Shown here piece by piece: positions 1-42,308 of a DNA stretch of 64,000 nucleotides. Location of the stretch: contig NC_073397.1 in assembly GCF_028641065.1 (NCBI RefSeq), positions 24,490,001-24,554,000 on the forward strand, written 5' to 3'. The position numbers and the translations under genes were made by a program. Every line of letters starts with the position of its first letter. The first letter of the stretch is position 1. The stretch comes from Leucoraja erinacea. Its lineage: Eukaryota. Below the pieces are notes generated by a model. That model was not told the origin of the DNA, searched no databases, and was given only the letters and a program-made list of their open reading frames with translations.

Positions 1-783
1 CTTTATCATTTAATCTGACCAGAACCCATACCAAGAAATGCCATTCCTTTCTTTTAAGGCCTCAATTGACCACTTCAGGCATTGGACACACAAAGAACTG
101 CAGATGTTGGAATCTAGTTTAGAACACAAAGTGCTGGAGTAACTCAGCAGGTCAAGGAGCATCTCTGCAGAACATGGATCGGTAATGTTATGGGATCGGG
201 GAACTTCCTCGGGCCTTTTGTGCTACAAAGAGAAGATTGCATCAACTAATGTGTTTTAAAAAATTCTTTCTTGGAGCTTTCTTGTCCAGGATATTTGTCA
301 ATTTGATTCCTGGTTCTTGTCCTGCTCAGTGTAATTGCTGGGAGAGCTGGGAGAGCTGCCGGTGAAACCAGCTAACAGCTTTTCTAGAATGATTCTCAAC
401 CAGATAACCCCAGGATACTTCAAGTGAAAATGTTTACAGGAAGCATCGGAAATAAGTATTTGAACAAGTTGTTCCAGGCTACTAGGTGTAAGAGTTTCAT
501 TGACTGCCTGATTAACCTAGGTGGCACAATAATATATCAAATGTTATTTTGTCTTGAGGGCTCTTGGTATCTTTCATTCAGGAAAGGATGCTATTTCCTT
601 CAGGATCAATATTTTAAAAAAATCTGTGTCTCAACTTCTATTACAATCATATTGTTATATGAAGGTAGACTGGTTCGAAGGTCGTCATGGTCAGACACAC
701 CGAGGCCACTCTGGTGTTCTTCTCATGACCACTACCTCCTGTCGGAGTACCAGAAGGCAAACAGGGGGATGTTGAACAGTAAT

Positions 784-1098
784 GGCACAGTGGCACAGTG
801 GTAGAGTTGCTGCCTTACATTGCCAGAGTCCCGGGTTCAATCCTGACCATGGGTGCTGTCCATAAGGAGTTTGGTAGTTTTGCCTATGATTGCATGGGTT
901 TCCCCCAGGTGCTCCAGTTTCCTCCTACTTTCCAAAGATATACAGATTTATAGGTTAATTGGCTTTGGTAAATATTGTAAATTGTCCTTAGTGTGTAGGA
1001 CAGTGATAGTGTATGGGGATCGCTGGTTGATGTAAACTCAGTGGGCCAAAGAACCTGTTTCTGTGTTGTATCTCTAAACTAACCTAAACTAAACAAAA
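784..1098 (+). mobile_element. tRNA-derived V-SINE (HE1-like)
   Basis: A-box-like TGGCACAGTGG, B-box GGTTCAATCC, V-domain-like GGGTTTCCCCCAGGTGCTCCAGTTTCCTCC, LINE-type tail ending (CTAAA)n. Confidence 0.85.
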
Positions 1099-1384
1099 CA
1101 CCCACTACTCTTACTGACCTTCCGAAGATCCTGCCCAGATGGTTTGCCAACTGGACGTGACCCCCAATTATCTGCATGATCACCCCGACCAATCCCTCTG
1201 CATCCATTCATCTTTTCCCTGTCTGATTTTCATCCTTCAATCCTGCCTTACTTCATCAGATCCTCTCCTGCTTGATCAAACCCCGAACACTGGCCAGGCC
1301 TACAGTGACAACAACCACCCCCCCTTCCAATAAATAGTCCCCAGACTCCACCACTCTGCTCCCCAACACGCAACCTCCATCAGT

Positions 1385-1558
1385 TCCATTCTCTACAATC
1401 TCGTTTCCCTCTCTGCTGACACGCAGTCTGAAGAAGGGTCTTGACCCGAAACGTCACTCATTCCAACTCACTAGAGATGCTGCCTGTACCGCTGAGTTAC
1501 TCCAGCATTTTGTGTCTATCTTCAGTTTAAACCAGCGTCTGCAGTTCCTTCCTACACA
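1385..1558 (+). mobile_element. Penelope-type terminal repeat fragment carrying a hammerhead motif
   Basis: CTGAAGAAGGGTCTTGACCCGAAACGTCAC...GATGCTGCCTG...GAGTTACTCCAGCATTTTGTGTC...CTGCAGTTCCTTCCTACAC, repeated many times in the window. Confidence 0.75.
1425..1458 (+). ncRNA. Minimal type I hammerhead ribozyme
   Basis: AGU-CUGAAGA-aGGGUC uu GACCC-GAAAC-GUC^ACU. Complete core, 5-bp stem II, 3-bp stem I, palindromic ACGU stem III; predicted cut after 1455. Confidence 0.75.
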
Positions 1559-1634
1559 TTCAGTGATTGAGATGTTGCCTCCCCATAACCGAACTACAGG
1601 CCGGAAAAGTGACGGTGCTTGCCCCCAGAACCAT

Positions 1635-1995
1635 AGTCTGGGCGGCTGAGGAATGGCTAATGGACTTCAATGCAGATAAGTGTGAGGTGTGGCATTTAGG
1701 GAAATCAAACCAGGGCAGGACCTTCACAGTGAATGGTAGGATCATGGAGAATGTTCTGCAGAAGAGTACAGGTTCACAGTTCCCAAGAACTGGCATTATA
1801 CATAGAAAGGGTGGTAAGGAAGGCTTCTGGTACATTGGCCTTCATCAGTCAGGGCTTTGAGTATAGAAATTGGGGCATTCTGTTAGAGTTGTGCAAGATC
1901 TTGGTAAGGCTACGTTTGGAGTATTGTGTTCAGTTTTTGTCGCCTTGTCCTAGAAAGAATGTAATTAAAGTGGAAATAGTGCAGAGAGGATTTAC
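1635..1995 (+). mobile_element. CR1 LINE fragment (ORF2 C-terminal region)
   Basis: Peptides WAAEEWLMDFNADKCEVWHLGKSN and LVRLRLEYCVQF. Confidence 0.85.
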
Positions 1996-2630
1996 ATAGA
2001 AACATAGCAAATAGGTGCAGGAGGAGGCCATTCGGCCCTTTGTGCCAGCACCGCCATTCATTGTCATCATGGCTGATCGTCCCCTATCAACAACTCGAGT
2101 CTGCCTTCTCCCCATATGCCTTGACTCCACTAGTCCCTAAAGCTCTATCTAAATCTCTCTTAAATCCATCCAGTGACTTAGCCTCCACTGTCCTCTGAGG
2201 CAGGGATTTCCATAAATTTACAACTCGCTGAGTGAAAAAGTATTTTCTCACCTCAGAGTTAAATGACCTCCCCTTTATTCTAAGACTGTGGCCCCTGGTT
2301 CTGGACTCGCCCAACATTGGGAACATTTTTCCTACATCTAACTTGTCCAGTCCTTTTATAATTTTATATGTTCTATAAGACACCCCTCATCCTTCTGAAC
2401 TCCAGTGAATACAAGCCTAGTCTTTTCAATCTTTCCTCATATGACAGTCCCGCCATCCCAGGGATCAATCTCGTGAACCTCCACTGCACTGCCTCAATCA
2501 CAAGGATGTCCTTCCTCAAATTAGGAGACCAAAACTGTACACAATACTCCAGATGTGGTCTCACCAGAACTCTTTACAACTGCAGAAGAACCTCTTTACT
2601 CCTATACTGAAATTCTCTTGTTATGAAGGA
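1996..2630 (-). mobile_element. CR1 (HER1-like) LINE 3' end
   Basis: [27 protein letters not shown]; 3' tail with TTTCTATG. Confidence 0.9.
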
Positions 2631-2715
2631 CTTACGAGGATTCCTAGCCTACAACTGGGCTGGCTAGGGTAGAATCACTGAGACATCCGTCATTATGATG
2701 TTGGGAAATCACAAT

Positions 2716-2868
2716 TCAAGTCGAGTCAAGTCAAGTCAAGTTTATTTGTCACATACACATACGAGATGTGCAGTGAAATGAAAGTGGCAATGCTCGCAGA
2801 CTTTTGTGCAAAAGACAAACAACAAAACAACCAAACAAATTATAAACACAATCATAACACACATATTC
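2716..2868 (-). mobile_element. Rex1/Babar LINE 3' UTR
   Basis: (CAAGT)n tail and UTR matching 19860-19938 in reverse. Confidence 0.75.
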
Positions 2869-2869
2869 C

Positions 2870-3897
2870 TCACTCAGTCTCTGCAAGATGAAGCCATCTC
2901 TCTGAGCTCTGAATAACACTGAACATATGTCTACTCAACTGTGAGTGTCCTTAATGTGGTTTGAAAATGAAAATATTGTTGGTTTGAAGTAAAAAGGCAC
3001 TGCCTGCAAATGGTTGTTTGGGGGGGGGGGGGGGGGTTGGGTTTAAATAAAAAAGGCACTGCCTGCAAATGGTTATTTGTCTAAACTTGACAACTTCCTG
3101 TAACTTACTATATTGATTTTGGATAAAACTCTACCACTTACAGCTGTGATTTTTGGCCATCTTACTAAGTTCCCCTCCTCTCATCGGGTGCAGAGGATTC
3201 TTCCCATCAATGAAAAACAAAAGTGTTATTAGTGTTTAAAAAATGTTGAGAATCTCTCTCCTGTCAATCACACCATGAAGGCCACACCTTTTCCAGTGGG
3301 AGGGGGAGGGATTATAAAACCCGGAATTGTGGGTGTTGCTCAGTCTCTGCATGATGGGGGAGGGAGAGGTCATGACTGTCTGAGCTGTGAATCAACTGAA
3401 CACACTGAATGTCTACTGTGTGGTTTTATGGTGGTTTCACCCTGCTTGAAATAGTATGAAACTGCATTTGAATGTGGTGTCGTTGCACCCTGCATGAAAT
3501 GGTATGAAACTGCATTTGAATTTGGTGGCCTTGCACCCTGCATGAAATGGTATGAAACTGCATTTGAATTTGGTGGCCTTGCACTCTGCTTGAACTGGTA
3601 GGAAACTGAACCTGAATTTGGTGGCCTTGCACCCTGCTCGAAGAGGTAAGAAACTGCACTTGAAATTGGTGGCCTTGCACCTTGCTTTAAATGGTAGGAA
3701 AATGGATTTGAATTTGGTGGCCATGAGTCAACTGCCAGCACATCAGGCTTGAGAGACTGCGCTGCCACCCCAAGAATCCATTTGGCCCACAATGCCCCCC
3801 CCCCCCCCCCCCCCCTTTGGTGGGGAGGTGGAATATTACGTTGGGGGACCAGCCCTCCTGTGTGAACAGGGGACCCAATGGGTTCCACTTAGTCTAG
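2870..3897 (+). mobile_element. Non-autonomous Helitron, 5' truncated, with 48-bp minisatellite
   Basis: Ends GGGACCCAATGGGTTCC hairpin + ACTTAGTCTAG|T; homologous to 61054-62906. Confidence 0.75.
3430..3723. repeat. 48-bp minisatellite, about 6 copies
   Basis: Unit GAAACTGCATTTGAATTTGGTGGCCTTGCACCCTGCATGAAATGGTAT; 16-aa periodicity in overlapping ORFs. Confidence 0.9.
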
Positions 3898-4199
3898 TAT
3901 TTATCTAAAAATTCAACTCAACTGTGTAGAGGTTATTTATGTAAACAGCCTTTGATGAGGTGGAGTAGCTGTTACTACTAATTATGTGTTTGGCATGTAT
4001 ATAGTGATGCATTTCATGTGAAGTCCAGTCTCAGTCATGCAAGTAACTACTCAGTCATGCAAGTAACTAATGTCAATCAGAGATACATTCAGTAATGACT
4101 CATATAATTATTCACATGGACTGCAAATCTCTTTGCTCTGCACATATGGTATTGGATTACAAACAATATAGAATTTAGTGAGAGCATGGACAAAGAGGT

Positions 4200-4830
4200 T
4201 GGCACAATGTGGGCAGGCAATGGGAGCATTGAGAGCAGGGTCTTGGAACCGGGCTCGGTTTAGGCATAGGCTGAGATCGGGCCTCAGTATGAGTGTAGAT
4301 TGAGAACAGAGCTTACTTTAGTGAAGTTTAGAGATACAGAGCGTAAACATGCCATTCGACCCATCGAGTCTGTGCCGACCAGCGATCCCCTACACTAGCA
4401 CTATCCTACACACTAGGGACAAGTTATATTTTTTACTAAAGCCAATTAACCTACAAACCTGCATGTCTTTGGAGTGTGAGAGGAAACCGGAGCTCCCGGC
4501 GAAAACCCAAGTGGTCATGGAGAGAACGTACAAACTCCGTACAGACAGCACCATAGTCAGGATCGAACCGAGGTCTCTGGCACTGCAAGGCAGCAACTCT
4601 ACCACTGCGCTACCTTACCACCCCAAACATTAATGTGAACAGGGACTAAAAGCAGATGTCAGTGTGGGCATGGACTGGAATGGAACAATATGGAGAGGAA
4701 CTAAGAACCGGGTTCAGTATGAGCAGGGACTCAGAACAGGGCATAGTGTTGGCGTAGACTGAGAATGGAACAGAGTCGAGAGGGATTGAGAATGGGACTC
4801 AGTGTGGGCAGGGACTGAACATGAGGTTCC
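4200..4830. repeat. Degenerate ~30-bp tandem repeat interrupted by a SINE
   Basis: Recurring CAGT(A/G)TG(A/G)GCAGGGACTGAGAAC-like units on both sides of the SINE. Confidence 0.5.
4313..4624 (-). mobile_element. V-SINE (HE1-like)
   Basis: Reverse complement of the 784-1098 family. Confidence 0.85.
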
Positions 4831-5403
4831 ATCAGGTGGGAAAGAAAGGTGGACAGGAATATAAAATAAATTGTGAGTGGTAAATCAGAAATAACTGCAG
4901 AGAGCGTTCTTGGTTAGACAAGCAATACCACCAGTGAAAATAAATATATTTTAAAATGTTGCACTTATCTATCAGAAGAAGCATGAAAAGTATAATATAT
5001 TTTGTTTATAATCATCCCAATAAAAACTGTTGATTAGATTAAATTAGCATGCTCTACTAGATTCACTTTCTGCCAATTTGACATTTACAAGAAACTGCAA
5101 TAATTGTGATTCCTGACAAAACAAATATATGTAAATTATCTCTTAAAGGATGTAGAGATATTAATGTCTGTTAAACTGTTTGGTAAACATAGCATTTTGC
5201 ATTACATTGCAACAAGATCTAAAGTGAAATAAACATTAAATTGACTTTGAGTCTATTGTTTCAGAAGTGCTTGTTAAATCTGAATTGAATTCCATCTAAC
5301 CATGGTGAGATAAAAATGTCACAATATCAAGCTTGATAATGTATTTGGTTCAACAGTATCAACATTATTTGTTTTTGTGAGTTGGTACTATATATGAGAT
5401 GTG

Positions 5404-5900
5404 TTTGAATGTGGAGTTAAAGCAATGTCCAAATATGAACCAGTTCAAAATGACATACAAAAAACTTTTTTTCACAAGGTACAGGGATGAAGGGGATGGT
5501 TGACAAACAGGGGTTAATGTTTATTTATTATTTTATTTATTATTAATTTATGTTTTTGGTTACTTCATACATATTACTTGTATGTGTACATCAGTTGTAT
5601 GCATATATATGTCTGTATGCATCTCTAAAAATTGTCTGGGGTATTATTATTATTAATTAATTAATTAATATGGAAGAAGGGTTTAGGGAGAAGGGGTGAG
5701 ATTAAATAAGTTATTCTTCTTCTCACTCCTTTTCGAGCTTGTAAAGAAAAAGTGTTGGACATTTAAATTTTGCTTTATGCTTTTCATTGCTTTGCAAATA
5801 TTGCCTGGAATGTCCAATTGTTTGACTATTTCGATTTTGTTGTTGTTATTTATTCCTATTTATGTCTTTCCTTGTTCCGAACAAATAAACAAAAAAAAAA
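5404..5900 (+). mobile_element. LINE 3' end (L2/Crack/CR1 group), ORF2 C-terminus plus UTR and poly(A)
   Basis: Reads LNVELKQCPNMNQFKMTYKKLFFTRYRDEGDG*; UTR motif GGGGTGAGATTAAATAAG...TTCTCACTCCTTTTCG; AATAAA then A-tail. Confidence 0.6.
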
Positions 5901-7015
5901 TATCTTGATCATTGTGAAACTAAGTAACATAATCAAATGTTGCCTTTTCTTGTGCATCACAGAAACCAAATACAAATCTTCAAAGGAAATGATCTACATT
6001 CAGTTGTCTCCATTTACTGTGATTATTATTTTATATTAAAATGTAGCCTTCTTCATTTCCAGCAATACTTTGTTATAATGCAAAACAAATCCATAGTCAA
6101 GAAAACAATTATCTGATGATCTGTGCTGTAACTAAAATTGATTTTCTCCAAACAGCTTTTGGTATTAATAGTCCATAACATTTATTGTACTCCACAGATG
6201 GTTGGCAATTATTTGATTTAATCTAATAGGGGAAAAATATGTTTACCAGAGTCTGCAAATAAATCAGATGACCAATGGATGACAGAGTCTGAATGTCAAA
6301 AGATGATGATATCTGTGCTAATTAAGAGTTCCTTCTCCCACCCAATCAATTATTTGTTTAATTAAAGGTGTTAGATGCATTTCCCCCTCCATCTGTTAAG
6401 CCACAAGGTCATCCTGACAGCTATTACTGTGACAAATTGTCTTAATTATACTTTCAATCCTCAACATGTCTGGTTAAAATACAGCTCAGTGACATGTAAT
6501 GCTTTCAACCTAAGGCTAAAGTGTCTGATAGTATTGTTCGCAAAGCAATCACACACTTAACTCTTTGAGTGCAATGGATGCATTTAAGCCAATTGAAATA
6601 TAAGATTGATTACTGTTTACTTTATCTTGTTGACATCTGACAAACAAATGGAACTAGATCAATTGGCTTTATAAATGTAAAAAAATGTCCAGTATAAAAT
6701 TGTCCAACTTCCAGTATAGTTCCTGGTGGACTCTTCGGAAGGTACAAGGTAATAGGTACAAGGTATTACATTGTACAAGGTATCACAATGCTGTAATTTT
6801 GTTCATGCATGGAACAAATAAACTTACTGAGTTTCAGACTTTGCATGGATTGCTTGATTTCCATGTTCTTGTGTTAAAACAACATACTTTTGCTTTTTAA
6901 ATAACTGACACTACTAGTCATATTGACTATTTTAAAATAATTGCAATATTTGTAGCAAGATAGATACAAAATGCTGAAGTAACAGGTCATGCAGCATCTC
7001 TGGAGAAAATGTATA

Positions 7016-7049
7016 CGTGACGTTTCGGGCCGGGGCCCATCTTCAGATT
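7016..7049 (-). ncRNA. Minimal hammerhead ribozyme motif in Penelope-type repeat (6960-7050)
   Basis: Reverse complement: CUGAAGA-uGGGCC cc GGCCC-GAAAC-GUC; core intact, stem II differs from copy 1 but still pairs. Confidence 0.65.
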
Positions 7050-7599
7050 CAATTATCAGTTCCAGCACTTTTTTTTCTTCGATTGCTTAAATTTCCTCCA
7101 CATTTCCCCATTCCTGTAGATTTTTCAGTCTTGTCCAAAATAATATGTTACAATATCATTGTGGTGTGTTGTTATTGTCCTAAGCTGTGTTGTAATGTGT
7201 GTTTTATAATGTGTTATCAGGCAACTGAATCACCCTACCGTAACTAGAAAGCAGTCCTGAACTACTATCTACCTCGGACTATCTTTGATCGGACGTTACT
7301 GGCTTTATCTTGCTCTAAACATTATTCCTTTATCGTGTAGCTGTGCACTGTGAATGGCACGATAATAATCATGTATTGTTGCAACAAAAGCTTTTCACTG
7401 TACCTCGGTACTCATGACAATAAATTAAAACTGAAGTAATGCCCATTAATGCCTTCCTCAAATCTTTAATGTAATGCTTTCATTTGCAACCAATAGGGGC
7501 TTGAAATTCATCTTTAGGTAGTGATGACTAATTAGATCTTCTTAGCGAGTCCACATCACAAGATTAGAAATTGTTCAGCCAGAGCTGAACACGCTTGTC

Positions 7600-8780
7600 G
7601 GCATCGGCAGCTTTGGGTCAACCGCAAACTTAGAAATGTCACATTTAATTCCCTCATCTAAATTGTTAATATATATTGTAAACAACTGGGGTCCCAGCAT
7701 CAAGCCCTGCGGCACCCCACTAGTCACTGCCTGCCTTACTGAAAAGTACCCGTTATGGTCCTGTCCCATGATGCGAGTTTACCCAAGAGCTCTTCCGAGT
7801 TCACTCGTGGTACACCATCGAGTATTTTTTTACGCTTGGAAATTTTTCACAGTTGAAAAAACTTCACGAGTTTCCGCGTTTCCCGAGTACCTGCTGTTAG
7901 CATTACGAGGCACTATGAGACATCCACGAGTCCCGACGTACCCGCTACGTACATTCTACGTACTTACCACGAGTTAGATTTTTTTTTTAACTCGGGAGAG
8001 CTCTTGGGTAAACTCGAATTGTGGGACAGGGCCTTACGTCCCTGCACTTTGCTTACTGTCTGCCAACCAGTGTGCTCTAAAACTATGTGCTCTGATTTTG
8101 CCCACTAATCTCCTGTGTGGGACCTTAACAAAGGCTTTCTGAAAGTTCAGATACACTACATCCACTGGTTTTCCTTCATCTATTTTACTTGTCACGTCTT
8201 CAAAAAAATTCCAGAAGATTAGTCAAGCAGGATTTCCCCTTCAGAAATCCATGCTGACTTGGACTAATCTGTTTACTGCTATCCAAATGCGCCATTATTA
8301 CTTCTTTAATAATTGACTCCAGCATCTTCCCCACCAGATTAACTGGTCTATAATTCCCCATTTTCTCACTCGCTCATTTCTTTAAAAGTGGGATAACATT
8401 GGCTATCCTCCAATCCACAGGAGCTGATCCTGAATCTATAGAACATTGGAAAATAATCACCAATGCATCCATGATTTCTAGATCCACCTCCTTGAATACC
8501 CTGGGATGCAGACCATCAGGCCCTGGGGATTTATCAGCCTTCAGTCCCTTCAGTCTACCCAATACTATTTCTAGCCTAATGCAATCTTTATTTCTGTTCC
8601 TCTGTCTCCCTAGATCCTCTGTCCTCTTGTACATCTGGGAGACTGTTTGTATCTTCCTAAGTGAAGACAAAACCAAAGTTCCTGTTCAACTCGTCTGCCA
8701 TTTCCCTGTTCCTCATAATAATTTCACCTGTTTCTGCCTTCATGGGACCCAAATTTGTCTTAACTAATCTTTTTCTCTAT
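7600..8780 (-). mobile_element. CR1 LINE reverse-transcriptase region fragment
   Basis: VTSGVPQGLMLGPQLFTIYINNL, KSPGPDGLHPRV, VDWRIANVIPL. Confidence 0.9.
7756..8033. mobile_element. PIF/Harbinger-like MITE inserted in CR1
   Basis: TIRs GGTCCTGTCCCA...CGAGTTTACCCAAGAGCTCT / AGAGCTCTTGGGTAAACTCG...TGGGACAGGGCC; TTA flanks. Confidence 0.8.
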
Positions 8781-9291
8781 GCAAAAACAAATAATTTCAT
8801 GTGACAATAAAGTATTATTGAATCATCGAATTAAATCATTGAATCAAACTATTGGAAGAACGCAGTGAGTTAAGCATCAACTGTGGTCGATGTTTCAGGT
8901 TGAATCCCTGCATCAGGACTGCCACTTCAGTTCACGATGCGAGATTACAACCCAAAATGTTGACTTTCCTTTGGCCCCAGTTTATGCAGCTTGATCTGCT
9001 GTGTTCTTCCAACAGTTTGTTACTATTGCTCCAGATTCCATCACCTGCAATCTCTTATACCTCCACACAATGTTAGCAACACTATGCAGACAAAGAAGTT
9101 TAATCTTCTGTTAACTGCCCGATTATTTTACCCAATCAGGAAATTCCTTTTTTTCCCACCCATCACCCTCCCCCTAACTTCTTTTCTACAAAGGCTAATT
9201 TGTTTTTCTCTTTCTCTGTTCAAATGAAGTATCTCTGACCTGTTTTTCTTTCCACAGATAACCCCTGCCTTGATGAGGTAAACCTTGATGA

Positions 9292-9600
9292 AGTTGAGTT
9301 TTTTTAGTTTAGAGCGGAAACACCCACTTTGGCCCGCCGACCAGCGATCCTCGCACATTAACACCACCCTACACACTACCCTACGTACACTAATGATAAT
9401 TTATATGTATAACAAGCCAATTAACCTACAAATCTGTATGTCTTTGTAGTGTGGAAGGAAACCGAAGATATTGGAGAAAACCCAGGCAGGTCATTGGAAG
9501 AATGTACAAACTCTGTATAAACAGCACGCGTAATCAGGATTGAACCCGAGACTCTGGCTCTCCAAGGCCGCAACTCGACCGCTACGCCACCATGCCACCC
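9292..9600 (-). mobile_element. V-SINE (HE1-like)
   Basis: Reverse complement of the 784-1098 family. Confidence 0.8.
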
Positions 9601-10806
9601 TAAATTTATTTTTTATTTAGAGGGATAATTACTGATTTATGCATTCTTCTGTTCTCACAGTATCAAAGGAAATATTTATTCTTCGATGAAGACCACCAAT
9701 ATGGTTTAATTGCACGATTTTCAATTTATTTGAGAATGCCTTGTTCCTGCTCAATGTTAGAATTAAGAATATCTCCTCAGTGTGAGCGAGGAACATTACG
9801 TGGGTTGAGAAAGATCTATTTACCTGGACCAAGTGCAAGTCAAAGATATAGATGAGTCAAAGAAAGAAGTTCTACTAAAGCAGTATGCCAACTAGGGACC
9901 AAATTAAAAAGTAGAGCTACCAAGGTGACCAAAGGTTACACAAAAAAGCTGGAGAAACTCAGCTGGTGCAGCAGCATCTATGGAGCGAAGGAAATAGGCA
10001 ACGTTTCGGGCCGAAACCCTTCAAAGGTCTACCTTGAAGAAGTTCTCCTCTTCTCTCTCTTAAACAAGGTGACCAAATGTGAATTTCTACCTGAGCAAAT
10101 GCCCAAAATATTATTAGATCAGGGAGCTGAATGTATGGTTCAAAGATTGATGTGGATAGAAGGTTGAATTCATGGTGCATTAGTACTGGTACTGACAAAG
10201 GAGAAAGAGATTCCATTAGAGCAGGCAATTAAGACGTTGAATAATATATTTGTTTTTATTACAAGGGGATTTTGAGTAAATGAAAAAAATGTAATATAAG
10301 GCTCGGTGAGACAAAACAGAAATACTCCCATAAACTTAGGTAAAGTATAAAGGGCTGTTGCTCTCTTTGATTTGGAAGAAATATTAAATTCATTTAGTAA
10401 CTTTACATCCTAGCAAGTAAATCAGTTTAGCGTCTTCTGAAGCATTATATTCAAAACTAAAGAGCATGCTTGAAACCTATTCACATGGAATTCTGACGTC
10501 AATTAAAATTGTAAGCAAATGGATCCAGTATTGGAGATGAGATCAATATCCAGAAGCCAAAAAGGTTCTGGATATTTTAGGTGTAGATTATGATTGTTGA
10601 CATACTGTATATAGCATGGAATAGTGAACTTATAACATTTTAATATGCCTCAATCAATATTTTAACACTAAATTTTTCTTAAGGGCATTTTCATTTTTTC
10701 CTGAATAATATTCCTTATAAATGTCAAGCAGTAATGAGGCTCTGCATGTTTTCAGAGTATTGCAAACATTCTTATTTTGGCAGAGATGAGAGCATATATT
10801 TAATGT

Positions 10807-10811
<5 letters not shown>

Positions 10812-10850
<39 letters not shown>

Positions 10851-10868
10851 GCACACACACACACACAC
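10812..10868. repeat. Compound (CT)n(CA)n microsatellite
   Basis: Seen directly. Confidence 0.95.
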
Positions 10869-10869
10869 G

Positions 10870-11406
10870 CTGAGTTTGCCCTTGACTCATACTTGCAGCA
10901 TGGTCGCCACAAGGTCGTAGGAGGTCATAGGAAGTCTTCGTAACTCTTCCTCATGCTCGTAAGTGGTCTCCGCGTACTCGTGGCCTCAAGTAGGTTGCGG
11001 CGTTTTTGCAAGCCTGAAAAAAATGTCCACGAGTAAAAAAAAGGTCGGCATGGAAAAAATTGATACGTTTTACTCATAGGTAGGTCGTAGTACGTTGTGA
11101 TGGTAGTCGTGGGTAGTCGTAGATAGTTGTAGGTCGGTAACTGGTCAGAGAAAAAAAAATGCAAACATGACATAATTTTATCATGTGATCATTTCCACTC
11201 GTAGCTAGTCATAGTTGGTCTAAGGTGTGGAAGACTGAGGTCGAGGGGGGTCGTAGGAGGTCATAGACATATTCGTAGGAGATCGTAGACATAGTCGTAG
11301 GAGGTCGTAGGAGGTCTTTTACTTTGGTGAGTCAACACGACCGTGACAATTTTTTCAGCATGTCTAGGGTCTTCTAAACTCGTGGATTACGTCGAGACAG
11401 GACCTT
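10870..11406. mobile_element. Harbinger-like MITE, one end lost
   Basis: Inverted homolog of 51051-51599 (shared EFALDSY.QHGRHKVVGG pseudo-ORF); GGTCGTAG internal repeats; degenerate right TIR GACAGGACCT. Confidence 0.7.
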
Positions 11407-11677
11407 AAAATTGTAAGTTGGCCCGAGTGTGTGTAGGTTAATGTTTGTGCGCGGGGATCGCTGGTCGGCGTGGACTCGATGAGCCCCCCCCCCCCCCCCC
11501 GGACACTTATTATTATTTATTCAAATCGTTTGCTATGTCGCTCTTCAAGGGAGATGCTAAATGCATTTCGTTGTCTCTGTACTGTACACTGACAATGACA
11601 ATTAAAATTGAATCTGAAATTGAATCTGAATCAAAGGGCCTTTTTTCTTACTGTATCTCTAAACTAAAGTAAACTAA
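11407..11677 (+). mobile_element. V-SINE 3' half interrupted by a LINE 3' tail
   Basis: SINE sequence resumes after an insert ending ATTAAA...(GAATCT)n. Confidence 0.6.
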
Positions 11678-12439
11678 TTTCTCAGCCATTCACCTTCCCT
11701 TTCAATTGGCCTGCTTATAATCGGTGGCAATCCACCACTAGCATCCTTGCACCCTTAGGCTTAACGCAATAATATAATAATACACAAAAAATTATGGTAC
11801 TGTTAAATTGGAGGAATGTTGTCTATAGCTACAACTTGACATGAATCACATGCAAAATAGAGGTACTTTGGCAGATATAATTTAACCCTGAGTGTAAGAT
11901 ACCTATTTAGAAAAGCCAAATAGGGATAGACTATATAAATAAATATTAGGGCAGGAAGGAATGTTGGTGAACAGTGAGACCTAGAGATCTAAGTTTATAA
12001 GTTCCATGAAAATGGCAACACAGGCTGATTCTTCCAGTTTCTTTTGGAGTGAGTGAGGCAGAGGGGGAGTTGGGAGGACATCTTAGAAGTATGTAGGATT
12101 AAGAGAGGCATAAATAGGGTTGTTACAGTTGTCAAAATCTTATTTTTTCCATGGTAAGAATAAGAGGGCACAGATTAAAAGCTAGAATGCTGGAGAAACT
12201 CAGCAGGTGAGGCAGCATCTATGGGATAGGAATAGGTAACGTTTCCGGTCGAAACCCTTCTTCAGATTCATCCAATTGAACCCAACGTTCTACCAATTCA
12301 TCATTATATTTTACTTTGGATTGCCCCTTTGCTTTTGGAACAACTCATTTAAATCAGATGATGTTATAATCCCTATCTCATAACCAATTAACAACCCAGA
12401 TATCCTTCTCTGATTGTCTTTGTGTAAATTCCTTTGCAG

Positions 12440-12489
12440 CTGCACAACATAAGAGGTTCAAACAGTTATGGATTTTAATTGAAGCTCAG
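12440..12489 (+). CDS. Candidate internal exon, (A)AQHKRFKQLWILIEAQ
   Basis: Strong acceptor TTCCTTTGCAG, donor CAG|GTAAAA, single open frame, phase 1 to 0. Confidence 0.3.
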
Positions 12490-12651
12490 GTAAAAAAAAA
12501 GCATGATTATGAAAATGCATTCCAAATCCAGTGAAGATATTTAGTTGCCATAAATTGCATTCTTAATGATTCGGAAGCTCTGTGAAATAAGAAGGAATGC
12601 CAATGAAAGTTTGGCAGAAAAGAACAGATAATACATGTAAACATTTTGAAA

Positions 12652-12865
12652 GAAGACACAAGGAACTGCGGATGCTGGTTTATACCAAAGATAGACACAA
12701 AGTGCTGGAGTAACTCAGTGGGTCAGGCAGCATCTCTGGAGAAAAAGGATGGGTGACATTTCAGGTTGGGTGCCTTCGGGAAGGGTCAGGACCTGAAACA
12801 TCACCCATGCTATTTCTCCAGAGATGCTGCCTGATCCACTGAATTACTCCAGCACTTTGTGTCTA
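12652..12865. mobile_element. Fold-back (inverted dimer) Penelope-type repeat with 14-bp TSD
   Basis: 12692-12865 is an imperfect palindrome; TAAACATTTTGAAA at 12638-12651 and 12864-12877. Confidence 0.8.
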
Positions 12866-12924
12866 AACATTTTGAAAATTTATTTATCCATAGAATTGAT
12901 GTGTGAATACCATATGATTTAAGT

Positions 12925-13312
12925 TATAGAAACTTACAAAATTCTTAAGGGGTTGTACAGGCTAGATGCAGGAAGATTGTTCCTGATGTTGGGGAAGTCC
13001 AGAACAAGGGGTCACAGTTTAAGGATAAGGGGAAATCTTTTAGGACCGAGATGAGGAAAACTTTTTTCACACAGAGAGTGGTGAATCTCTGGAATTCTCT
13101 CCCGCAGAAGGTAGTTGAAGCCAGTTCATTGGCTATATTTAAGAGGAAGTTAGATGTGGCCCTTGTGGCTAAAGGGATCAGGGGGTATGGAGAGAAGGCA
13201 GGTACAGGATACTGAGTTGGATGATCAGCCATGATCATATTGAATGGTGGTGCAGGCTCGAAGGGCCGAATGGCCTACTCCTGCACCTATTTTCTATGTT
13301 TCTTTGTTTCTA
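12925..13312 (+). mobile_element. CR1 LINE 3' end
   Basis: FFTQRVVNLWNSLP-encoding segment; tail TTTCTATGTTTCT. Confidence 0.9.
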
Positions 13313-16300
13313 AGTGCATCCCCAATAAATATTATTTACAATTACTGAAATTAATACTGTAGGAAATAGCACAATATGTTATTTCAGGCATTTAATTCCA
13401 GTTATTATTGATTTAAAAGCTGTTTGAATGACAGAGCAGCATTTAGATGAGGCATTTCTGTGGACAGTTTTTCTCTGTTGTTGAATGCTAGCTCAATGTA
13501 AAATTTCACAGTTTGATGGATTAGGGATGAGCATTTTAAATTTCCAGAAGCAAGTTAATTAAAACTCTTTGCATGTTTTTCTCACCTTGTTCTTTCACAG
13601 GATGTGTGCATTTTTGGCAAGATGAGTATTTATTATTCATTCTTAGTTGCCCTTGAAAAGCTGGTGAGCTGCATACCTAAATTACTGCGGAAGGTATTCC
13701 ATTGAGATGTTAGATACGGAGCTGCATGATCCTGATCCATCAACAATGATTGAACATTTAAAAAAATGCCTAAAGATGATGGTATATGATTTGGAGGGGA
13801 ACTTGAAAGTGATGGTATTCTTTATTGATAGCGCCATACATTGATGAAGCAGTCAACAGGTATTTTCTGTCTCTGAATATCGGATGCAGTGTACAAAACA
13901 CTGATGTTGTTACTTAGTGCATTTGTTGTTAACAACAGGGGTGAATTTCCAGGCAATTATCTTCTTTGCTATTATGCAACTTGGACCCGTTGCTTTTCGA
14001 CTGAGTAAACGATATTTGCTATGAAGATCAAATATTTATATGTTTATTTACTTTACTATTTCCTTCCTACATTCATAAAGTTCTATTTTTAATCATGAAT
14101 TCAGTTCATTTCTTCTGCCTTTCCCTGATCATCTCATGCCTTTTATTTAGAAACCTACCATATAAAATCTAATGTAACAAGAAGGAACTGCAGATGCTGG
14201 TTTATACCAAAGAAATACACAAGATCTCTCATCTTAAACTCGGGCCTTCTAGTTCTAGATTTCTCCTTCCCTGTGTATTCACCCTATCTATTCCCCTCAT
14301 GAAGTTATACAACTTTATTAGTCTCCTGCCCTTTAAGGAATAAAATCCAAGTCTGCCGAACCTCTAAGAAGGCAACAAATGTACATTGTACAATATTGGA
14401 TGCCATTGTAGGACATTGGCATACATTGGACATGTGGAGGTCCTAGCATGAAACTGCTGACTATGATACGTGTGGTAAATTCTGGCCTTTAGATTGCTTC
14501 CAAGCATGTGTCATTTGCCTTGCTATTCAATATTTTCATGCATTTCAATTCCACATCAATCTCCATTGCATCTAAAGCATAATCCAGTGCCACACTGACG
14601 TAATCTTACCCTGTCTCCTTTCTCATGTCACCTATTTTTGGGGGGAGCATTTTATGACCTGAAATTGCTTACCCCACGACCCCATCTCTGTATTAGCCGT
14701 AATTTCCAGTGTTGCTAGTCGTACCATCAGAGCAAATCCTATGTGTTGTTAATGGTGGCAGTGTTTAGTATCTGAAGTCTGGATATGCTCTGGTCTTGAT
14801 TTTGGTTTGACTTTGTTCTGGACTCAAACATAATCTTAGTTAGGTTTGATTTACATTTAAATACCATTCTCTTAATCTTAATCTTCAAACCTGGTCTTCT
14901 GAAGGAAAGTAAAAAGCCCCTTTCAGGTTTAATTGTTAAATATCTGTAAATCCTTGAAAATTGCACGACAATATTTCCGTTGAAAAGCATAGCATCAGTT
15001 TTTCTGTGTGTTCATAATGCTATGAGTAGGTATATCAGAATTAGTAGGAGTCTTTATTTTTTTCTGCCAAAAGCAATTTAGAAGTGTAAACAAGCTAATT
15101 AAGCCCAACATGGAAATCTTCAGACTGAATAGCGTTGCAAATTACAGGTTTCCTGCTGTTATGCTATGATATAGTTTTGTTGTTGTAAAAATTAACCTAG
15201 CCTTATGAGGGTTACACTTTCAATTCACCACACTTATTGCTGTTGTTTTTGCTGTCTTTAAGCTTCCCATTTTCTGAGAACTGTGTTCATAAAGGAAACG
15301 GATATCAATGCCAGAAGTGGATTTATTTTCACGGTTAACATATTATAGCGAAAAAATTCCTGGTGTGATGTGCCACGCAGAGGAATGTATGGTCCTTGTT
15401 ATAGGAATAAGCACAGTGGTGTTTTGGACCTTCTCGGGTCAAAGACCGGCACTGCAGTAGTTTGACCTTCTGTGCACGAGCAAATCAATAGCTCCTCTAG
15501 AATCTTTCTCTACTTTGATGCATTTTTATGTGATTCCTGGCTTACACTGATGGTTTAGCAATAGTGTGAAGCCGAAAATATTTCATCCTAATGCCAAGCT
15601 AAATGCTCCATTAAATCATGCTTTTATCATCACACTTTGAGTTGAATAACATTGCTTCGCAATAGCAAATCAGGCAGTAGAGGGAACAAAATACATTCCC
15701 ATCGCAAATATACTGACATGAAACCTTTCATCATTTAGAAACCTTGGTTATTGAAAAGAATGATGTAAGGAAATTGGATAGAGAATAAAAGGGTCATCAA
15801 GTTGCTCTTGGGCATTTTGCCCTGACAACCAATATACATTCCACCTATTACATTTGGGACAGAAATGTATGTGGTGAATATATTCACCACAGAGAGGGAG
15901 TAATGGGGGAGGTCCATGGCATTTTCCTGTCTGTCACACTGCAATCATTTACTGGCATGCGTGATGTTCAACATATTTTGTATAATAAGACAGGCCTTGC
16001 ACATGCAGATTGGCACAAAATACATTCCTCTGTAATTCCACAATGGGTGAGCCAGTGCAGAAGTAGATTGAGAAAGGAAAAAAAAACACATTATACAGTG
16101 AAAATACTCAAGCAGCATCTATGGGGCAGGAAATCAATCCAGATCAAGGACCTTTCATCCAAACTTGGGTTGTGTGAAATCTGGAAGTGTTTTGGAAGCC
16201 TTGGGATGAACATAGCAAAACTAACAGGCAGCAATCCCCACCATTTTACTGTTGAGATATTCATTCAGTGGATACCTCAATGCTAGGAGAGAACAAGCAA

Positions 16301-16654
16301 CAATTGGGCCATCAAGACTTAGGGTAAGTGGAGATGAAGTCTCATTGAGGTAAGACTGAAATGAAACTGTCAACGCCAGAAACATGGCGATTTTTTATGT
16401 AATGCCTCGGTAAAGTCTGCTGAATAATTTTACCTGATTAAATACAAAAATAAAGAATTTCACTGTACATAGGTACATATGACTATGAAGTATCGTTGAA
16501 TCATCAATGAATCATTAATTTTGGAATACTATTCCTTTACAAAGCTCATAAAAATGCTGCCCTAGGTTAAGTAATTTTGAGTCTCTTGTCAGTACATGTT
16601 CCTTTACCTACGAATCTGATTTCTTCTGATGTGAATGCAATGTTAGGGATAGAT

Positions 16655-16988
16655 ACTTTACAGTACAGAAACAGAGCATTTGGCCCAGTGACCCAGTACT
16701 AACCATCAACTATCAATCAACGGCTCAATTACTCTAATCATAAATTATTCTTCCATTTTTATCATAAATCTTCCCAGATTCTACTGCTCACCTACACACA
16801 AGGGAACATTTACAGTGGCCAATAAACATATTAACTTGTACAATTTTAGGATGTGGGAGTAGACTGGAGCACCTGGAGGTAACACATGCAGCCACAGGGA
16901 GAATGAGCAAACTCCATAGAGATAGCACCGGTCAGAATTGAACCAGGATCTCCCGTGCTATGGAGCAGTAATTCTACTAGCTGTGCAT
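16655..16988 (-). mobile_element. Old V-SINE
   Basis: Degenerate V-domain GGATGTGGGAGTAGACTGGAGCACCTGGAGG. Confidence 0.6.
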
Positions 16989-17723
16989 CTTTATCTTTGG
17001 CATATAAAAAAATACCAAAACAAATGTCAGTGAAAACAGATGTAACAGTGAAAAGACTCCATTCACCATAAATGGATTAGCTGCAACCATGTAACATACA
17101 TCAAGGTAATATCTTTGATAATTTTGCATTTGAATTAATTATACAATATCACATAATTAATATTTTTTTTCTAATAGAAAAACAGAGAACCCTGTGTTCC
17201 CTTTTTAAATGGCGTCTGAGATTGAAAGCCATAGCAGACATTAAGAGCAATTTAATAATAAAATACAACAAATGCTAATTAGTTCATGTCCTTTCATGTT
17301 TGACTGATTAATTTCACTTAAGGAGTTTAGAAAACCCTTTTTTAATGGCGTGCATTTTAAAGTCAACAGTGAATAAGGGTACGTGGAATTGCACACAGAC
17401 GTTTTGTGGTTTTGATTCAGGTACATGTGAGAATGTCTTGTTTACTCCTTGAACTGAACTTGGGGCTTTGGTGGTATAGAGGAGGAACAAATGTGGAGTA
17501 GAAACTCATGCCCGGCCAGAGTCAATGAATGCTTGATAAACTGGGGTATGCATAATGTACTGTGGTGCACAGGAGTCAATTGGATAGAACATTAAGCTCT
17601 GAGCACCATGCACTTACACAATTATATTCTGAGGTTAAGACATGTGAGCAAGGATCAACCTACATTGATCCCAAAATAAAGGATTTATTTGCCACTAATC
17701 TTTAATAAGCAAATTGTACAAAT

Positions 17724-19938
17724 ATTTATTTCCGGATGCGGCTATGGTGGTGGCTAGAGATTTTAATAAATTAAAGCTCAAAAAGGTAATGTCCAACTTC
17801 CACCGATACATCACGTGTGCCACCAGGGGGGAAGAATCTTGGACCACTGCTATACGCCGTTCCGGAAAGGCTACAAGGTCGTTTCACTCCCTCCTTTTGG
17901 AAAATCTGCCAATGCAGCCATTTTCCTGTTGCCGGAATATAAACAACGAATAGGACGGGAAGCGGCGGTGACGAGGGACATAAAGCGGTAGTCCGACCAG
18001 TCAAAGGCCATGCTGCAAGATGCACTGACCAATGTCAACTGAAATATGTTCCAAGCAAGTTCCAGTGATGTCAGTTCGCGGAAGCGGTCACGGACTTCAT
18101 TGCAACAATAGCCGATAACATTGTCCCCACGGTAAGGGTTAGCATCTTCCCTAATCAAAAACCCTAGGTGGACAGGTCCATTTGCGTTGTCTTGAATGCT
18201 CGCACCACTGCTTACAACTCTGGCCTGGCATCCAGAAATAAGGACGACTACAAGGTAGAGTCCTACCGACTGCGAAGGGCGGTGAAGGACGCAAAAAGGA
18301 GGTACAGAGGCAGGATGGAGTCGCAGATAGAGTAGAGTCTGGACAGAGTCTGGACCCTGCCAAAGACCAGACGCCTTTGGCAGGGGCTACGGACTATAAC
18401 TATCTACCGGAGCAGGCCCCCTTCAACCGGAAGTGCCGTGCCCTAGCTGATGACCTGAACTCTTTCTACGCATGTTACGAGACAGGAGTAGAAAGAGTTC
18501 AGGTCATCTGCTAGGTTGCCGGCTAACAACAACACCGCCAGCGCGCTGGCTAGCAAGGCTGGAGGGAGGTCCTCCTCTGGGGATGGATACACAATCTTGT
18601 TGTCCGAGCACGACGTGAGGAGGGCTCTGACACATGTGAACATGAGAAAGCTGGAGGCCCAGATGCTATATCTGGGCGAGTACTTAAGTCTTGTGCTACT
18701 CAGCTAGCTCCGGTGCTCACTGCAATATTCAACCTCTTCCTGGCCAGGTCCGTGGTCCCTGCCTGCTTCAAAAGATCCATCATTGTACCTGTACCAAAGA
18801 ATGCTTCTCCAGCTTGTTTGAATGACTACCGACCGGTGGCCCTCACCTCGGTAGTCATGAAATGCTTCGAGAGGCTGGTCAAGAACCACATCTGCGCCTT
18901 CCTCTCTCACAACATGGGCCCGCTACAGTTCGCATACCATCCAAACAGATCCACGGACGATGCGGTCTCCCCAGTTCTGCACACCGCTCTCTCTCACCTT
19001 GACAGCCAGAAGGGGGGCTATGTGAGGATGCAGTTCATTGACTACAGTTCAGCCTTCAACACGATAGTCCCCACCAGACTTGCTGAGAAGCTGCTGGAAC
19101 TGGGACTTAACACTCCCCTGTGTGCCTGGCTCCTGGACGTTCTCACCGCCAGGCCCCAGGTAGTCAAGATGGGAGGAAATACATCAAAGACCCTCAACCT
19201 GAGCACAGGATCCCCCCAAGGTTGTGTCCTCAGCCCCCACTGTACTCCCTGTACACACATGACTGTGTGTCTAGGTTCAGCTACAACTCTATAATGAAGT
19301 TTGCTGATGACACTGTGATGTCACCGAAAATAATGAGAAGGCCTACCGGGAAGAGGTGGCTGATCTGACACTTTGGTGTCAGGGCAACAGCCTCCTCTTG
19401 AATGTCAAACTCAGCTTCTACTCAGCGGTTGTAGAAAGCATCTTGTCTGGAAACATCACAATCTGGTTTGGGAACTGCTCTGCCCGGGACAAAAAGGCTC
19501 TGCAAAATAGTGTGTTCGGCCGAACGCGCTATGGGAACTACACTCGCCCCTCTGCAAGAACTATACATCAGAAGGTGCAGATCCAGAGCCAGCAACATTA
19601 TGGGGGACCCCTTCCACCTCAGCAATGGACTGTTCCAGCTGTTACGGTCAGGCAAACGCTTCCGCTGTCATGATGTGAAAACAGAGGATGAGACCTAGTT
19701 TCTTCCCAGAGGCCGTTAGGACTGTAAACTCTTATCTCACCAGGGACTAACTTAATCTACCAAACTACTGTTGTGTTGTGTCTTTTAAAAATTGCTGGGT
19801 TTTTTTCTCACCAATATGTAATTACTGATTCTGTTCTATTCTGTTTTGTCATTTTTTGCACATTCCGCAGGCATTGCCACTTTTCATTTCGCTACACATC
19901 TCGTATGCGTATGTGACAACTAAAGTTGACTTGACTTA
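17724..19938 (+). mobile_element. Rex1/Babar LINE, decayed ORF2 (APE end, RT, C-terminus) and 3' UTR
   Basis: [72 protein letters not shown]; (GACTT)n tail; stops and frameshifts. Confidence 0.9.
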
Positions 19939-20466
19939 ATCCAGAGAAAATTAAGTTTTTGATCATTTGTAGATTAACTTCTGACTGACGTGAAATTCAA
20001 CGTGTGTTGCGTGTACTATTCATTATAGCTCATCTAATTGCATTTTCTGTGTTCGACGCAGACCTGACTATTTATACAACACTCCTTTATACAACACACA
20101 TGTTCTTATTAGCAACAATTGGACACAGAGCTACAACTAATGATCTTCATTGGTTTGTCAGTAAAAGTGAGAGATCATCACACGATGATGTTGCTTTAAC
20201 CTTTATTTACAGAGACACCCTGCTGACGCAATGATACCGGTCAGGTCAGCTTCAGGAATCATGAAAGGTTGCTCAAACATCTCCCAAAGCCAACAGAAAA
20301 TAAGTTAAACCAATAGAGACTATTTTCTCTAACATCTTGCAGCTGAGATATTTATTGGGTGTCTCAATGTTGAGTTTGCTCTCAGCACTTGAAGAAACAA
20401 AGAACTGCTGATGCTGGTCAATACACAAAGAAGAGGTCTCTGAGCATATAACATTGAACATCATGA

Positions 20467-20608
20467 TAGAAACATAGAAACATAGAAAATAGGTGCAGGA
20501 GTAGGCCATTCGGCCCTTCGAGCCTGCACCGCCATTCAACATGATCATGGCAGATCATCCAACTCAGTATCCTGTACCTGCCTTCTCTCCATAACCCCGA
20601 TCCCTTTA
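20467..20608 (-). mobile_element. CR1 3' tail
   Basis: (CATAGAAA)n ATAGGTGCAGGAGTAGGCCATTCGG. Confidence 0.85.
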
Positions 20609-24145: not shown

Positions 24146-24245
24146 TAAACAGCTGGGTCATTTTTCTTTATAATTTTAATGTTTCAGGTCAATGCCTTTG
24201 AACCCTTATCAGAACATTTGTCCAGCACATACTAATACCAGACCC

Positions 24246-42272: not shown

Positions 42273-42308
42273 GGGTGACGTTTCATGTAGGGACCCTTCA
42301 TCAGACTG
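42273..42308 (-). ncRNA. Hammerhead motif, core intact, stem II disrupted
   Basis: Reverse complement: AGU-CUGAUGA-agggucccuacau-GAAAC-GUC-ACC. Confidence 0.45.

What the first reader, a model, noticed from the sequence alone, without database searches (positions are those of the whole stretch)
1385..1558. Dispersed short retroelement family carrying a minimal hammerhead ribozyme
Seen: an intact CUGANGA-stem II-GAAAC-GUC core at 1425-1458, with further cores on the minus strand at 7016-7049, about 12235-12270 (GUU triplet) and 42273-42308. Decayed copies lie near 8890, 10000, 22610, 23090, 29720, 32260, 35070, 38650, 48390, 52615 and 63950. Stem II keeps pairing between copies despite sequence change (GGGUC/GACCC vs GGGCC/GGCCC). 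Known: Penelope-like elements carry such minimal type I hammerheads with a palindromic stem III and are thought to cleave as dimers. Inference: this is a very high-copy, non-coding, ribozyme-bearing mobile family in a skate-like genome, about one copy per 4-5 kb. Intact intronic copies could cut host pre-mRNA.
Basis: partly seen in the sequence, partly recalled or inferred. Interest (0 to 1): 0.7.

Follow-up and report, generated by a model that had tools for sequence, protein, structure and literature searches.

The report
Penelope end stubs with minimal hammerhead
The motif is the miniature hammerhead-ribozyme sequence in the end repeat of a known kind of jumping gene (Penelope-like), scattered through this genome as roughly a million 100-135-letter stubs that are likely by-products copied from uncut RNA and likely do not cut host RNA.

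Summary
A minimal type I hammerhead motif lies at 1425-1458 (C3 = 1428, predicted cut after 1455), and all 14 other listed sites are real copies. The window has 26 copies, about twice the density claimed. Only 2 of the 4 'intact' cores keep stem II.

It is not shown to be an independent non-coding family. The same sequence is the pseudo-LTR of Penelope-like retroelements, most likely Neptune type (RT + GIY-YIG): it follows the endonuclease in 18 of 20 long elements, and a tandem element with two motifs exists. The genome holds 47,302 exact cores and an estimated 0.7-1.1 million copies.

Most copies are discrete stubs. 135 of 186 begin at the motif's front edge, with no peak at the cut site. 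They end at two sites about 35 nt apart, and clean examples carry 6-17 bp target duplications. Best reading: run-off cDNAs primed inside the leader of uncut RNA. Cores decay at CpG rates, with no compensatory covariation. Host pre-mRNA cutting has no support here, and no host gene was found.

This scan reported the same family before on other DNA of this genome.

The parts
1391..1558 (+). Focal copy: 5'-truncated PLE pseudo-LTR of subfamily A, with about 30-37 nt of upstream pyrimidine-rich spacer, the hammerhead motif, body and tail. The 5' edge is approximate and no clear target duplication was found.
   Evidence: (extension 41)
1425..1427 (+). Stem I 5' strand (AGU), within the conserved (T)CAGT just before the core where most stubs begin
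1428..1455 (+). Minimal hammerhead: CUGAAGA, extra A, 4-bp stem II with CUUG loop, GAAA, palindromic ACGU stem III without loop, GUC; predicted cut after 1455
   Evidence: features as in PMC4209133
1456..1458 (+). Stem I 3' strand (ACU): 3 bp in this copy, 2 bp in most copies
1459..1523 (+). pLTR body up to the first common 3' end (about 100 nt from the core)
   Evidence: 3' end histogram
1524..1558 (+). Optional ~35-nt PLE 'tail' up to the second common 3' end
   Evidence: tail described in PMC11167929 and PMC8557442
6957..7048 (-). Stub with a strict-intact core (stem II GGGC/GCCC), tail-less
12182..12267 (-). Stub with core letters intact, GUU triplet, first stem II pair broken
42211..42309 (-). 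Copy with core letters intact and stem II mismatched
8847..9055 (.). Decayed head-to-head inverted pair (8847-8916 minus, 8945-9055 plus)
12658..12865 (.). Head-to-head inverted pair (12658-12777 minus, 12780-12865 plus)
48351..48515 (.). Copy at 48386-48515 plus, with a short inverted piece 48351-48385 in front
52552..52759 (.). Head-to-head inverted pair (52552-52630 minus, 52632-52759 plus); source of the weak MIR2118 hairpin match
29615..29790 (-). Copy with about 60 nt of upstream spacer, decayed core, and tail
91..63980 (.). Further decayed copies: 91-211 -, 9927-10022 -, 14178-14224 -, 21978-22042 -, 22605-22641 -, 23076-23118 -, 31115-31222 +, 32256-32335 +, 34997-35100 -, 37273-37379 -, 38647-38752 +, 47824-47856 -, 57943-58053 +, 63882-63980 -

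Best explanation
The motif is the minimal hammerhead sequence in the pseudo-LTR of a Penelope-like retrotransposon, likely of the Neptune type, and the dispersed copies are likely dead stubs that the element's own enzyme pasted from uncut RNA. Shown: long elements read ORF end, pyrimidine spacer, TCAGT, hammerhead motif, ~100-nt body, ~35-nt tail and, in tandem copies, an ATG about 165 nt after the core that opens the RT-GIY-YIG ORF; stubs start at TCAGT and end before or after the tail; clean examples carry 6-17 bp target duplications. Inferred: transcription starts at or near TCAGT; the endonuclease nicks the target; RT primes internally at one of the two tail ends (as shown in vitro for Poseidon of Anolis) and, when it primes in the 5' copy of the repeat, runs off the RNA 5' end after 100-135 nt. 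Priming in the 3' copy would give ordinary 5'-truncated or full elements, and two cDNAs joined at their ends would give the head-to-head pairs. The ribozyme would act, if at all, only in tandem or protein-bound element RNA; inserted single copies decay neutrally.
For: pLTR link: same-strand copy within 600 nt after GIY-YIG in 31 of 37 distinct loci (34 of 40 before dropping 3 duplicates; one of the 37 was the query's source; about 15% expected from the density) and in 18 of 20 long-ORF loci. L072 has an 838-aa open frame with RVT_1 (E 5e-6) and GIY-YIG (E 9e-4), both below Pfam's cut-off, with DKG, YIDD and a CX4CX2C linker. L075 is a tandem with two motifs about 3.85 kb apart and ATG at 1329. 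5' ends: 135 of 186 core-bearing copies extend less than 15 nt upstream of C3; 5 of 321 hits start at model positions 33-36 around the cut site. Among 39 short solo copies, match to TCAGT fades to background by -6. Empty-site comparisons: about 12 clean insertions among 24 candidates from 350 tested, target duplications mostly 6-17 bp, 5' ends C3-6 to +6. An independent scan found duplications in 10 of 39 versus 1.75 in shuffles. 3 of 11 5'-complete long elements also start within 10 nt of C3. Head-to-head pairs: 112 of 321 hits. In RNA reads, element homology begins at C3-3/-2 and ends at the two 3' ends, with no place where many molecules begin or end. Neutral decay: G12A 3,035 versus 10,833 intact; in subfamily B the context-matched loop change (12 of 67) is no rarer than G12A (6 of 67). 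PMC11167929: internal priming at two sites, tail signature, cleavage not needed for insertion, no RNA-seq ends at the cut.
Against: No transcription start was mapped; the loose ends come from stubs inside host transcripts and say nothing on a start site. 8 of 11 5'-complete long elements extend upstream of TCAGT, so read-through RNA or a template jump must be added. In D. virilis Penelope the start lies 46 nt before a 75-nt intron whose end abuts the hammerhead, and here TCAG is preceded by a pyrimidine tract, so the hotspot could reflect splicing or an RT stop. The upstream library (38 copies) may miss old subfamilies and overstate short starts. The sample held 20 exact cores where 13 were expected from the genome count, so the copy estimate may be high. 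The focal copy itself extends 30-37 nt past the hotspot. No cleavage assay exists, and the RNA runs may be of related species.
Confidence: 0.7

Rival explanations
1. The stubs are an independent non-autonomous family (SINE-like or retrozyme-like monomers) derived from the pLTR, transcribed on their own and mobilised in trans by the PLE protein.
For: Discrete ends and their own target duplications. They outnumber ORF-bearing copies: PLE ORF remnants in about 20 of 60 sampled stretches versus 295 pLTR hits, none in the window. PMC3846280 concludes that pLTRs suffice in cis for mobilisation in trans; bioRxiv 10.64898/2026.07.22.740005 proposes retrozymes as non-autonomous PLE derivatives.
Against: Stubs of subfamilies A and B carry the same diagnostic letters as the pLTRs of ORF-bearing A and B elements. 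Both stub 3' ends are the element's tail ends. There is no start peak at the cut site, as ribozyme-processed monomers would give. Window copies are not tandem arrays.
Confidence: 0.12
2. The stubs are ordinary 5'-truncated copies primed at the 3' pLTR, and the pile-up at TCAGT is an RT stop or joining hotspot (RNA structure, bound protein, splice acceptor, or the palindrome TCAG-N-CTGA), not an RNA 5' end.
For: PLEs are mostly 5'-truncated. A continuum of longer copies exists (42 of 186 extend 20 nt or more). An acceptor-like pyrimidine tract plus CAG precedes the core. Some inverted pairs join at the palindrome (L105).
Against: RT meets the folded motif from its 3' side, so a structural stop should fall after the core rather than before it (inference). 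Empty sites show target DNA, not a shared exon, directly upstream. The monomer fold is weak (z about 0.1-0.7).
Confidence: 0.15
3. Intact copies in introns or UTRs cut host pre-mRNA, in pairs or with protein help, often enough to matter.
For: About 50,000-100,000 intact cores. 4 of the sampled stretches hold two strict cores on one strand, 0.9-5.4 kb apart. In subfamily A, damaging CpG changes are about twice as common as loop changes (G12A 3,035, G16.2A 3,094; loop 1,476 and 1,480). The bioRxiv preprint reports retrozyme exclusion from genes in Xenopus (abstract).
Against: Sequence context accounts for the excess in the controls available: A[C]G mutates at 10% versus 5% in the ORF, and the matched B control shows no excess (small n). 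The active dimer fold scores -8.5 kcal/mol versus -9.6 for two monomers and -23.7 for an inactive dimer. Single minimal motifs did not cleave and dimers cleaved weakly (PMC4209133). In run X18, which looks stranded, the two strands are near equal (52.5:47.5). No gene was found in the window.
Confidence: 0.07

Closest known systems
Minimal type I hammerheads (min-HHR) in pLTRs of metazoan PLEs (Cervera and de la Pena 2014, PMC4209133; main text parts 1-2 of 4 read, supplements not read)
   Same: Conserved core, extra nucleotide between 9 and 10.1, G10.1-C11.1 pair, palindromic 15.2-16.2 without loop 3, location in pLTR, mostly single dispersed motifs, some close pairs on opposite strands.
   Different: Stem II is 4 bp and stem I only 2-3 bp (7-8 and 4-5 bp in the Schistosoma family). 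At least 47,302 exact cores versus about 4,000 (coelacanth) and 9,000 (Xenopus), counted by different methods. Cartilaginous fishes are not named in the parts read.
Neptune/Nematis-type EN+ Penelope-like elements (Craig et al. 2021, PMC8557442; passages read)
   Same: RT followed by C-terminal GIY-YIG, DKG motif, CX2-5CxxC linker, partial tandems, inverted 5' copies, 30-40 bp optional tail.
   Different: Not placed on a tree with named references. No microsatellite targeting was seen in the empty sites examined. Most copies are pLTR-only stubs with a sharp 5' edge.
Poseidon of Anolis carolinensis, PAc (Frangieh et al. 2024, PMC11167929; parts 1-2 of 4 read)
   Same: Two 3' ends about 35 nt apart, about 100-135 nt from the hammerhead; no copies or reads starting at the cut site.
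   Different: In PAc the ORF starts inside the hammerhead; here the ATG lies about 35 nt beyond the tail. Several 3' junctions here share a few bases with the target.
Non-LTR retrozymes (bioRxiv 10.64898/2026.07.22.740005; part 1 of 5, passages and Discussion read; supplements not seen)
   Same: Non-coding, type I hammerhead, pLTR-related; reported in one chondrichthyan.
   Different: Retrozymes are defined by tandem units that each carry the ribozyme; the copies here are dispersed singles or head-to-head pairs.

Membership tests
PLE minimal hammerhead (min-HHR) | CUGANGA, GAAA and UH core in type I order | tested here: met
   1428-1455; non-CpG core columns 93% versus 82% in flanks across subfamilies
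PLE minimal hammerhead (min-HHR) | Extra nucleotide between 9 and 10.1, G10.1-C11.1 pair, stem II | tested here: met
   A1435; stem II 92% paired in 62 copies, though without covariation above shuffles
PLE minimal hammerhead (min-HHR) | Palindromic, loop-less stem III | tested here: met
   ACGU 1451-1454; CG kept in 79 of 127 sampled copies
PLE minimal hammerhead (min-HHR) | Stem I | tested here: inconclusive
   Only 2 bp in most copies, 80% of cells paired; 3 bp in the focal copy
PLE minimal hammerhead (min-HHR) | Self-cleavage as dimer or with protein | not testable with these tools
   No assay; the energy model does not favour the active dimer; no end pile-up in poly(A) reads
EN+ Penelope-like element | Single ORF with RT and C-terminal GIY-YIG | tested here: met
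   L072, 838 aa; both Pfam hits below curated cut-off, motifs DKG, YIDD and YIGET present; no ORF remnant inside the window
EN+ Penelope-like element | pLTR from partial tandem, inverted 5' copies, optional 30-40 bp tail | tested here: met
   L075 and 8 of 29 N-terminal loci extend into the previous unit; 112 of 321 hits in inverted pairs; two 3' ends
Neptune clade | CX2-5CxxC linker between RT and EN (shared with Nematis) | tested here: met
   CNRKKCNTC at 705-713 of the L072 frame
Neptune clade | RT phylogeny with named Neptune rather than Nematis references | not tested
   No named references on hand (one search hits are unnamed); vertebrates had Neptune and Poseidon in the preprint
Non-LTR retrozyme | Tandem units each with a complete hammerhead | tested here: not met
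   Window copies are single or inverted pairs
Non-LTR retrozyme | Unit ends at the cleavage site; circular RNA | tested here: not met
   No 5' peak at the cut site (5 of 321); circular RNA itself was not tested

The most novel reading that the evidence does not exclude
The stubs are the PLE counterpart of retroviral strong-stop DNA. They would mark the transcription start at TCAGT, show that RT routinely primes in the 5' pLTR and runs off an uncut RNA, and imply that a jump of this cDNA to the 3' pLTR builds the partial tandems, which are unexplained so far. The genome would then be a million-copy record of Penelope priming, run-off and strand joining, and would hold more minimal hammerhead cores than the counts in the papers read here.
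Probability: 0.35. Interest if true: 0.6.

Novelty: new member of a known kind. Interest (0 to 1): 0.35.

Why it matters
The ribozyme-PLE link is known since 2014, so the motif itself is ordinary. What adds value is scale and end structure. Roughly a million copies with sharply defined ends give genomic support, in a second PLE type, for internal priming on uncut RNA, and they make the open questions of where PLE transcripts start and how pLTR tandems arise directly testable (CAGE, in vitro run-off). The host also appears to tolerate tens of thousands of intact cores, which fits the view that single minimal hammerheads are inert.

Tried and rejected
- Rfam scan: no hammerhead family at E<=5; the MIR2118 hit is an inverted pair.
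- Compensatory covariation: not above shuffles.
- Copies starting at the cut site: no peak.
- Capture of host or element exons by splicing onto CAG|TCTG: the base frequencies fit it, but empty sites show plain target DNA upstream. No skipping joint appeared among the 15 joints shown; 95 were not shown.
- Selection for dead ribozymes: suggested by genome counts but not supported by context controls (67 B cores, 20 ORFs). It remains open genome-wide.
- Coding role of the pLTR body: an open frame in subfamily A is not kept in B variants (read).
- Host gene: 275 of 277 unmasked frames of at least 45 aa were scanned with Pfam and gave one RT fragment only.
- No RNA holder was listed for window 1-9000.
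- Target duplication at the focal copy: none clear.
- PDB sequence search of the L072 ORF: nothing significant.
- Protein-representative search: many unnamed relatives, not used further.
- Print searches: hammerhead+Penelope+shark, Penelope+elasmobranch, hammerhead+cartilaginous fish, pLTR/TSS/short copies and strong-stop+PLE listed no paper whose title or abstract start describes this family or a strong-stop model.
- Lunse et al. 2017 was seen only as a title in a reference list. Repbase/Dfam and the supplements of PMC4209133 and of the bioRxiv preprint were not seen and may list this element.

Full report
Observation. The sequence at 1425-1458 reads AGU, CUGAAGA, A, GGGU-CUUG-ACCC, GAAA, CG, UC, ACU, so C3 is 1428 and the predicted cut follows 1455. 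Only two window cores, 1428 (+) and 7046 (-), pass a strict test; the copies near 12265 and 42304 keep the core letters but have a broken stem II. Rfam has no hammerhead hit at E<=5. Stem II folds as 4 bp plus tetraloop. In 62 copies it is 92% paired, but its changes are mostly one-sided, and covariation does not exceed shuffles.

Abundance. A 28-nt core pattern has 47,302 exact matches in the 2.19 Gb genome, control 0. Sixty evenly spaced 10-kb stretches hold 295 hits, or 1 per 2.0 kb, and 28 strict cores. The sample held 20 exact patterns where 13 were expected, so I give 0.7-1.1 million copies. Cervera and de la Pena counted about 4,000 and 9,000 motifs in coelacanth and Xenopus by a different method.

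What it belongs to. Upstream of several close relatives lies the end of a GIY-YIG frame, and that domain had 91,434 first-look candidates in the genome. A same-strand copy of the repeat follows the domain within 600 nt in 31 of 37 distinct loci and in 18 of 20 long-ORF loci. L072 has an 838-aa open frame with RT and GIY-YIG matches below Pfam's cut-offs, plus DKG, YIDD and a CX4CX2C linker; that linker marks Neptune and Nematis elements (PMC8557442). L075 shows the tandem order: ORF end, spacer, hammerhead, body, tail, ATG about 165 nt after the core, ORF (frameshifted in this copy), second hammerhead about 3.85 kb on, then an inverted copy. The repeat is therefore the pLTR. At least two subfamilies occur. 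A includes the focal copy and was seen linked to ORF 3' parts; B is linked to the longest frames. The window has no PLE ORF remnant.

Ends of the copies. 3' ends cluster near model positions 95-106 and 125-133, the optional tail that Frangieh et al. traced to two internal priming sites. 5' ends do not cluster at the cut site (5 of 321 at positions 33-36). Of 186 core-bearing copies with enough flank, 135 extend less than 15 nt upstream of C3 and 42 extend 20 nt or more. In 39 short solo copies, match to TCAGT fades to background by -6. Of 350 copies tested for an empty site, 24 gave candidates and about 12 were clean insertions into other repeats, mostly with 6-17 bp target duplications, 5' ends from C3-6 to +6, and target DNA directly upstream. 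A separate scan found duplications in 10 of 39 versus 1.75 by chance. 112 of 321 hits are in head-to-head pairs. Of 29 loci picked by the ORF N-terminus, 11 include the whole motif: 3 start within 10 nt of C3 and 8 extend into the previous unit. The focal copy is one of the slightly longer ones.

Mechanism. The anatomy above is shown. The rest is inferred: TCAGT resembles an initiator (recalled consensus) and likely marks the RNA 5' end; RT primed in the 5' pLTR would run off after 100 or 135 nt and leave a stub with the whole, uncut motif. I noted this idea before consulting earlier findings. The term 'strong-stop' and the link to rebuilding end repeats come from e1-9854223. Against it: no start site is mapped, 8 of 11 long copies pass the point, and in D. 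virilis the start lies upstream of an intron that ends at the hammerhead, so an RT stop or splice-related cause remains possible.

Does it cut? Non-CpG core columns are more constant than flanks across subfamilies (0.93 versus 0.82), consistent with selection on source elements. Inserted copies lose G12 freely: 3,035 G12A against 10,833 intact. The other CpG changes number 2,470, 1,870, 3,094, 1,476 and 1,480. The excess at ribozyme positions looked like selection for dead cores, but A[C]G sites mutate twice as fast in the ORF, and in subfamily B the mirror-context loop change (12 of 67) is no rarer than G12A (6 of 67). The active dimer scores -8.5 kcal/mol versus -9.6 for two monomers and -23.7 for an inactive dimer (no tertiary terms). 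Published single minimal motifs did not cleave, and PAc needed protein. In four poly(A) runs laid on a subfamily B junction, the stub is covered thousands deep on both strands and no place has many starts or ends. This test is weak: fragmented libraries, about 5% of each run read, and species identity not shown. No host gene was found, so the intronic claim is untested.

Papers. Read in part: PMC4209133 (parts 1-2 of 4), PMC11167929 (parts 1-2 of 4), bioRxiv 10.64898/2026.07.22.740005 (part 1 of 5, passages, Discussion). Passages only: PMC8557442, PMC6765202, PMC6155905, PMC2377424, PMC3846280. Lunse et al. 2017: title only. No supplements were read.

Verdict. A real, very abundant, new member of a known kind. 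182 earlier notes on this genome fit the look-up, and seven of the eight shown reach much the same reading; these are not independent support. Interest 0.35, carried by the sharp 5' edge and what it may say about PLE replication.

Noticed in passing
L007, L097, L110, L123, L153: At 3' junctions of clean stubs the target duplication often begins with 1-4 bases that equal the element's last bases, suggesting short primer-template pairing in vivo; the PAc study stressed non-homologous priming.
   Followed up: partly
L105:5007-5187, L081; window 12658-12865, 52552-52759: Some head-to-head pairs join exactly across the near-palindrome TCAG-N-CTGA at the front of the core, as if two cDNA 3' ends annealed; others join within stem II.
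   Followed up: partly
window 1400-1426 and 1459-1476; Two acceptor-like tracts (pyrimidines then AG): one just before the core and one about 20 nt after the cut site, followed by ATG in typical copies. Sense intronic stubs might disturb splicing more than they cut.
   Followed up: no
   Followed up: no
window 18554-19937, 37800-38413, 44194-45149: LINE-type RT fragments (RVT_1 E 5e-17; an ALKBH8_N match in the C-terminal part), not PLE.
   Followed up: partly
window 27545-27850 (-) and 43190-43651 (+): Further RT-related remnants: RVT_1 E 2e-4, and a frame resembling a LINE ORF2 C-terminus (recalled; Pfam gave no relevant hit).
   Followed up: no
window 54508-55200 (+): 230-aa frame whose C-terminal half looks like a tyrosine-recombinase fragment (recalled likeness; no Pfam hit), preceded by a short tandem repeat.
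   Followed up: partly
window 783-1092 (about 6 copies) and 1788-2449 (about 9 copies): Two other dispersed families, likely a SINE and CR1-type LINE 3' ends (labels recalled); these are common targets of the stubs.
   Followed up: no
window 61819-62484; 3429-3797, 58665-59349, 61053-61377: A tandem array with a period of about 64 bp at 90% identity, and a second repeat with an internal ~30-bp unit present three times.
   Followed up: no
L071, L075: The ORF has a long Pro/Ala-rich repetitive segment between the N-terminal domain and RT; the full frame would be about 1,150-1,200 aa.
   Followed up: no
L165:800-1000, run X18: ORF-end reads are 2-3 times more frequent on one mate orientation, whereas the stub is near even; this may reflect orientation bias of longer copies in transcripts.
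   Followed up: no
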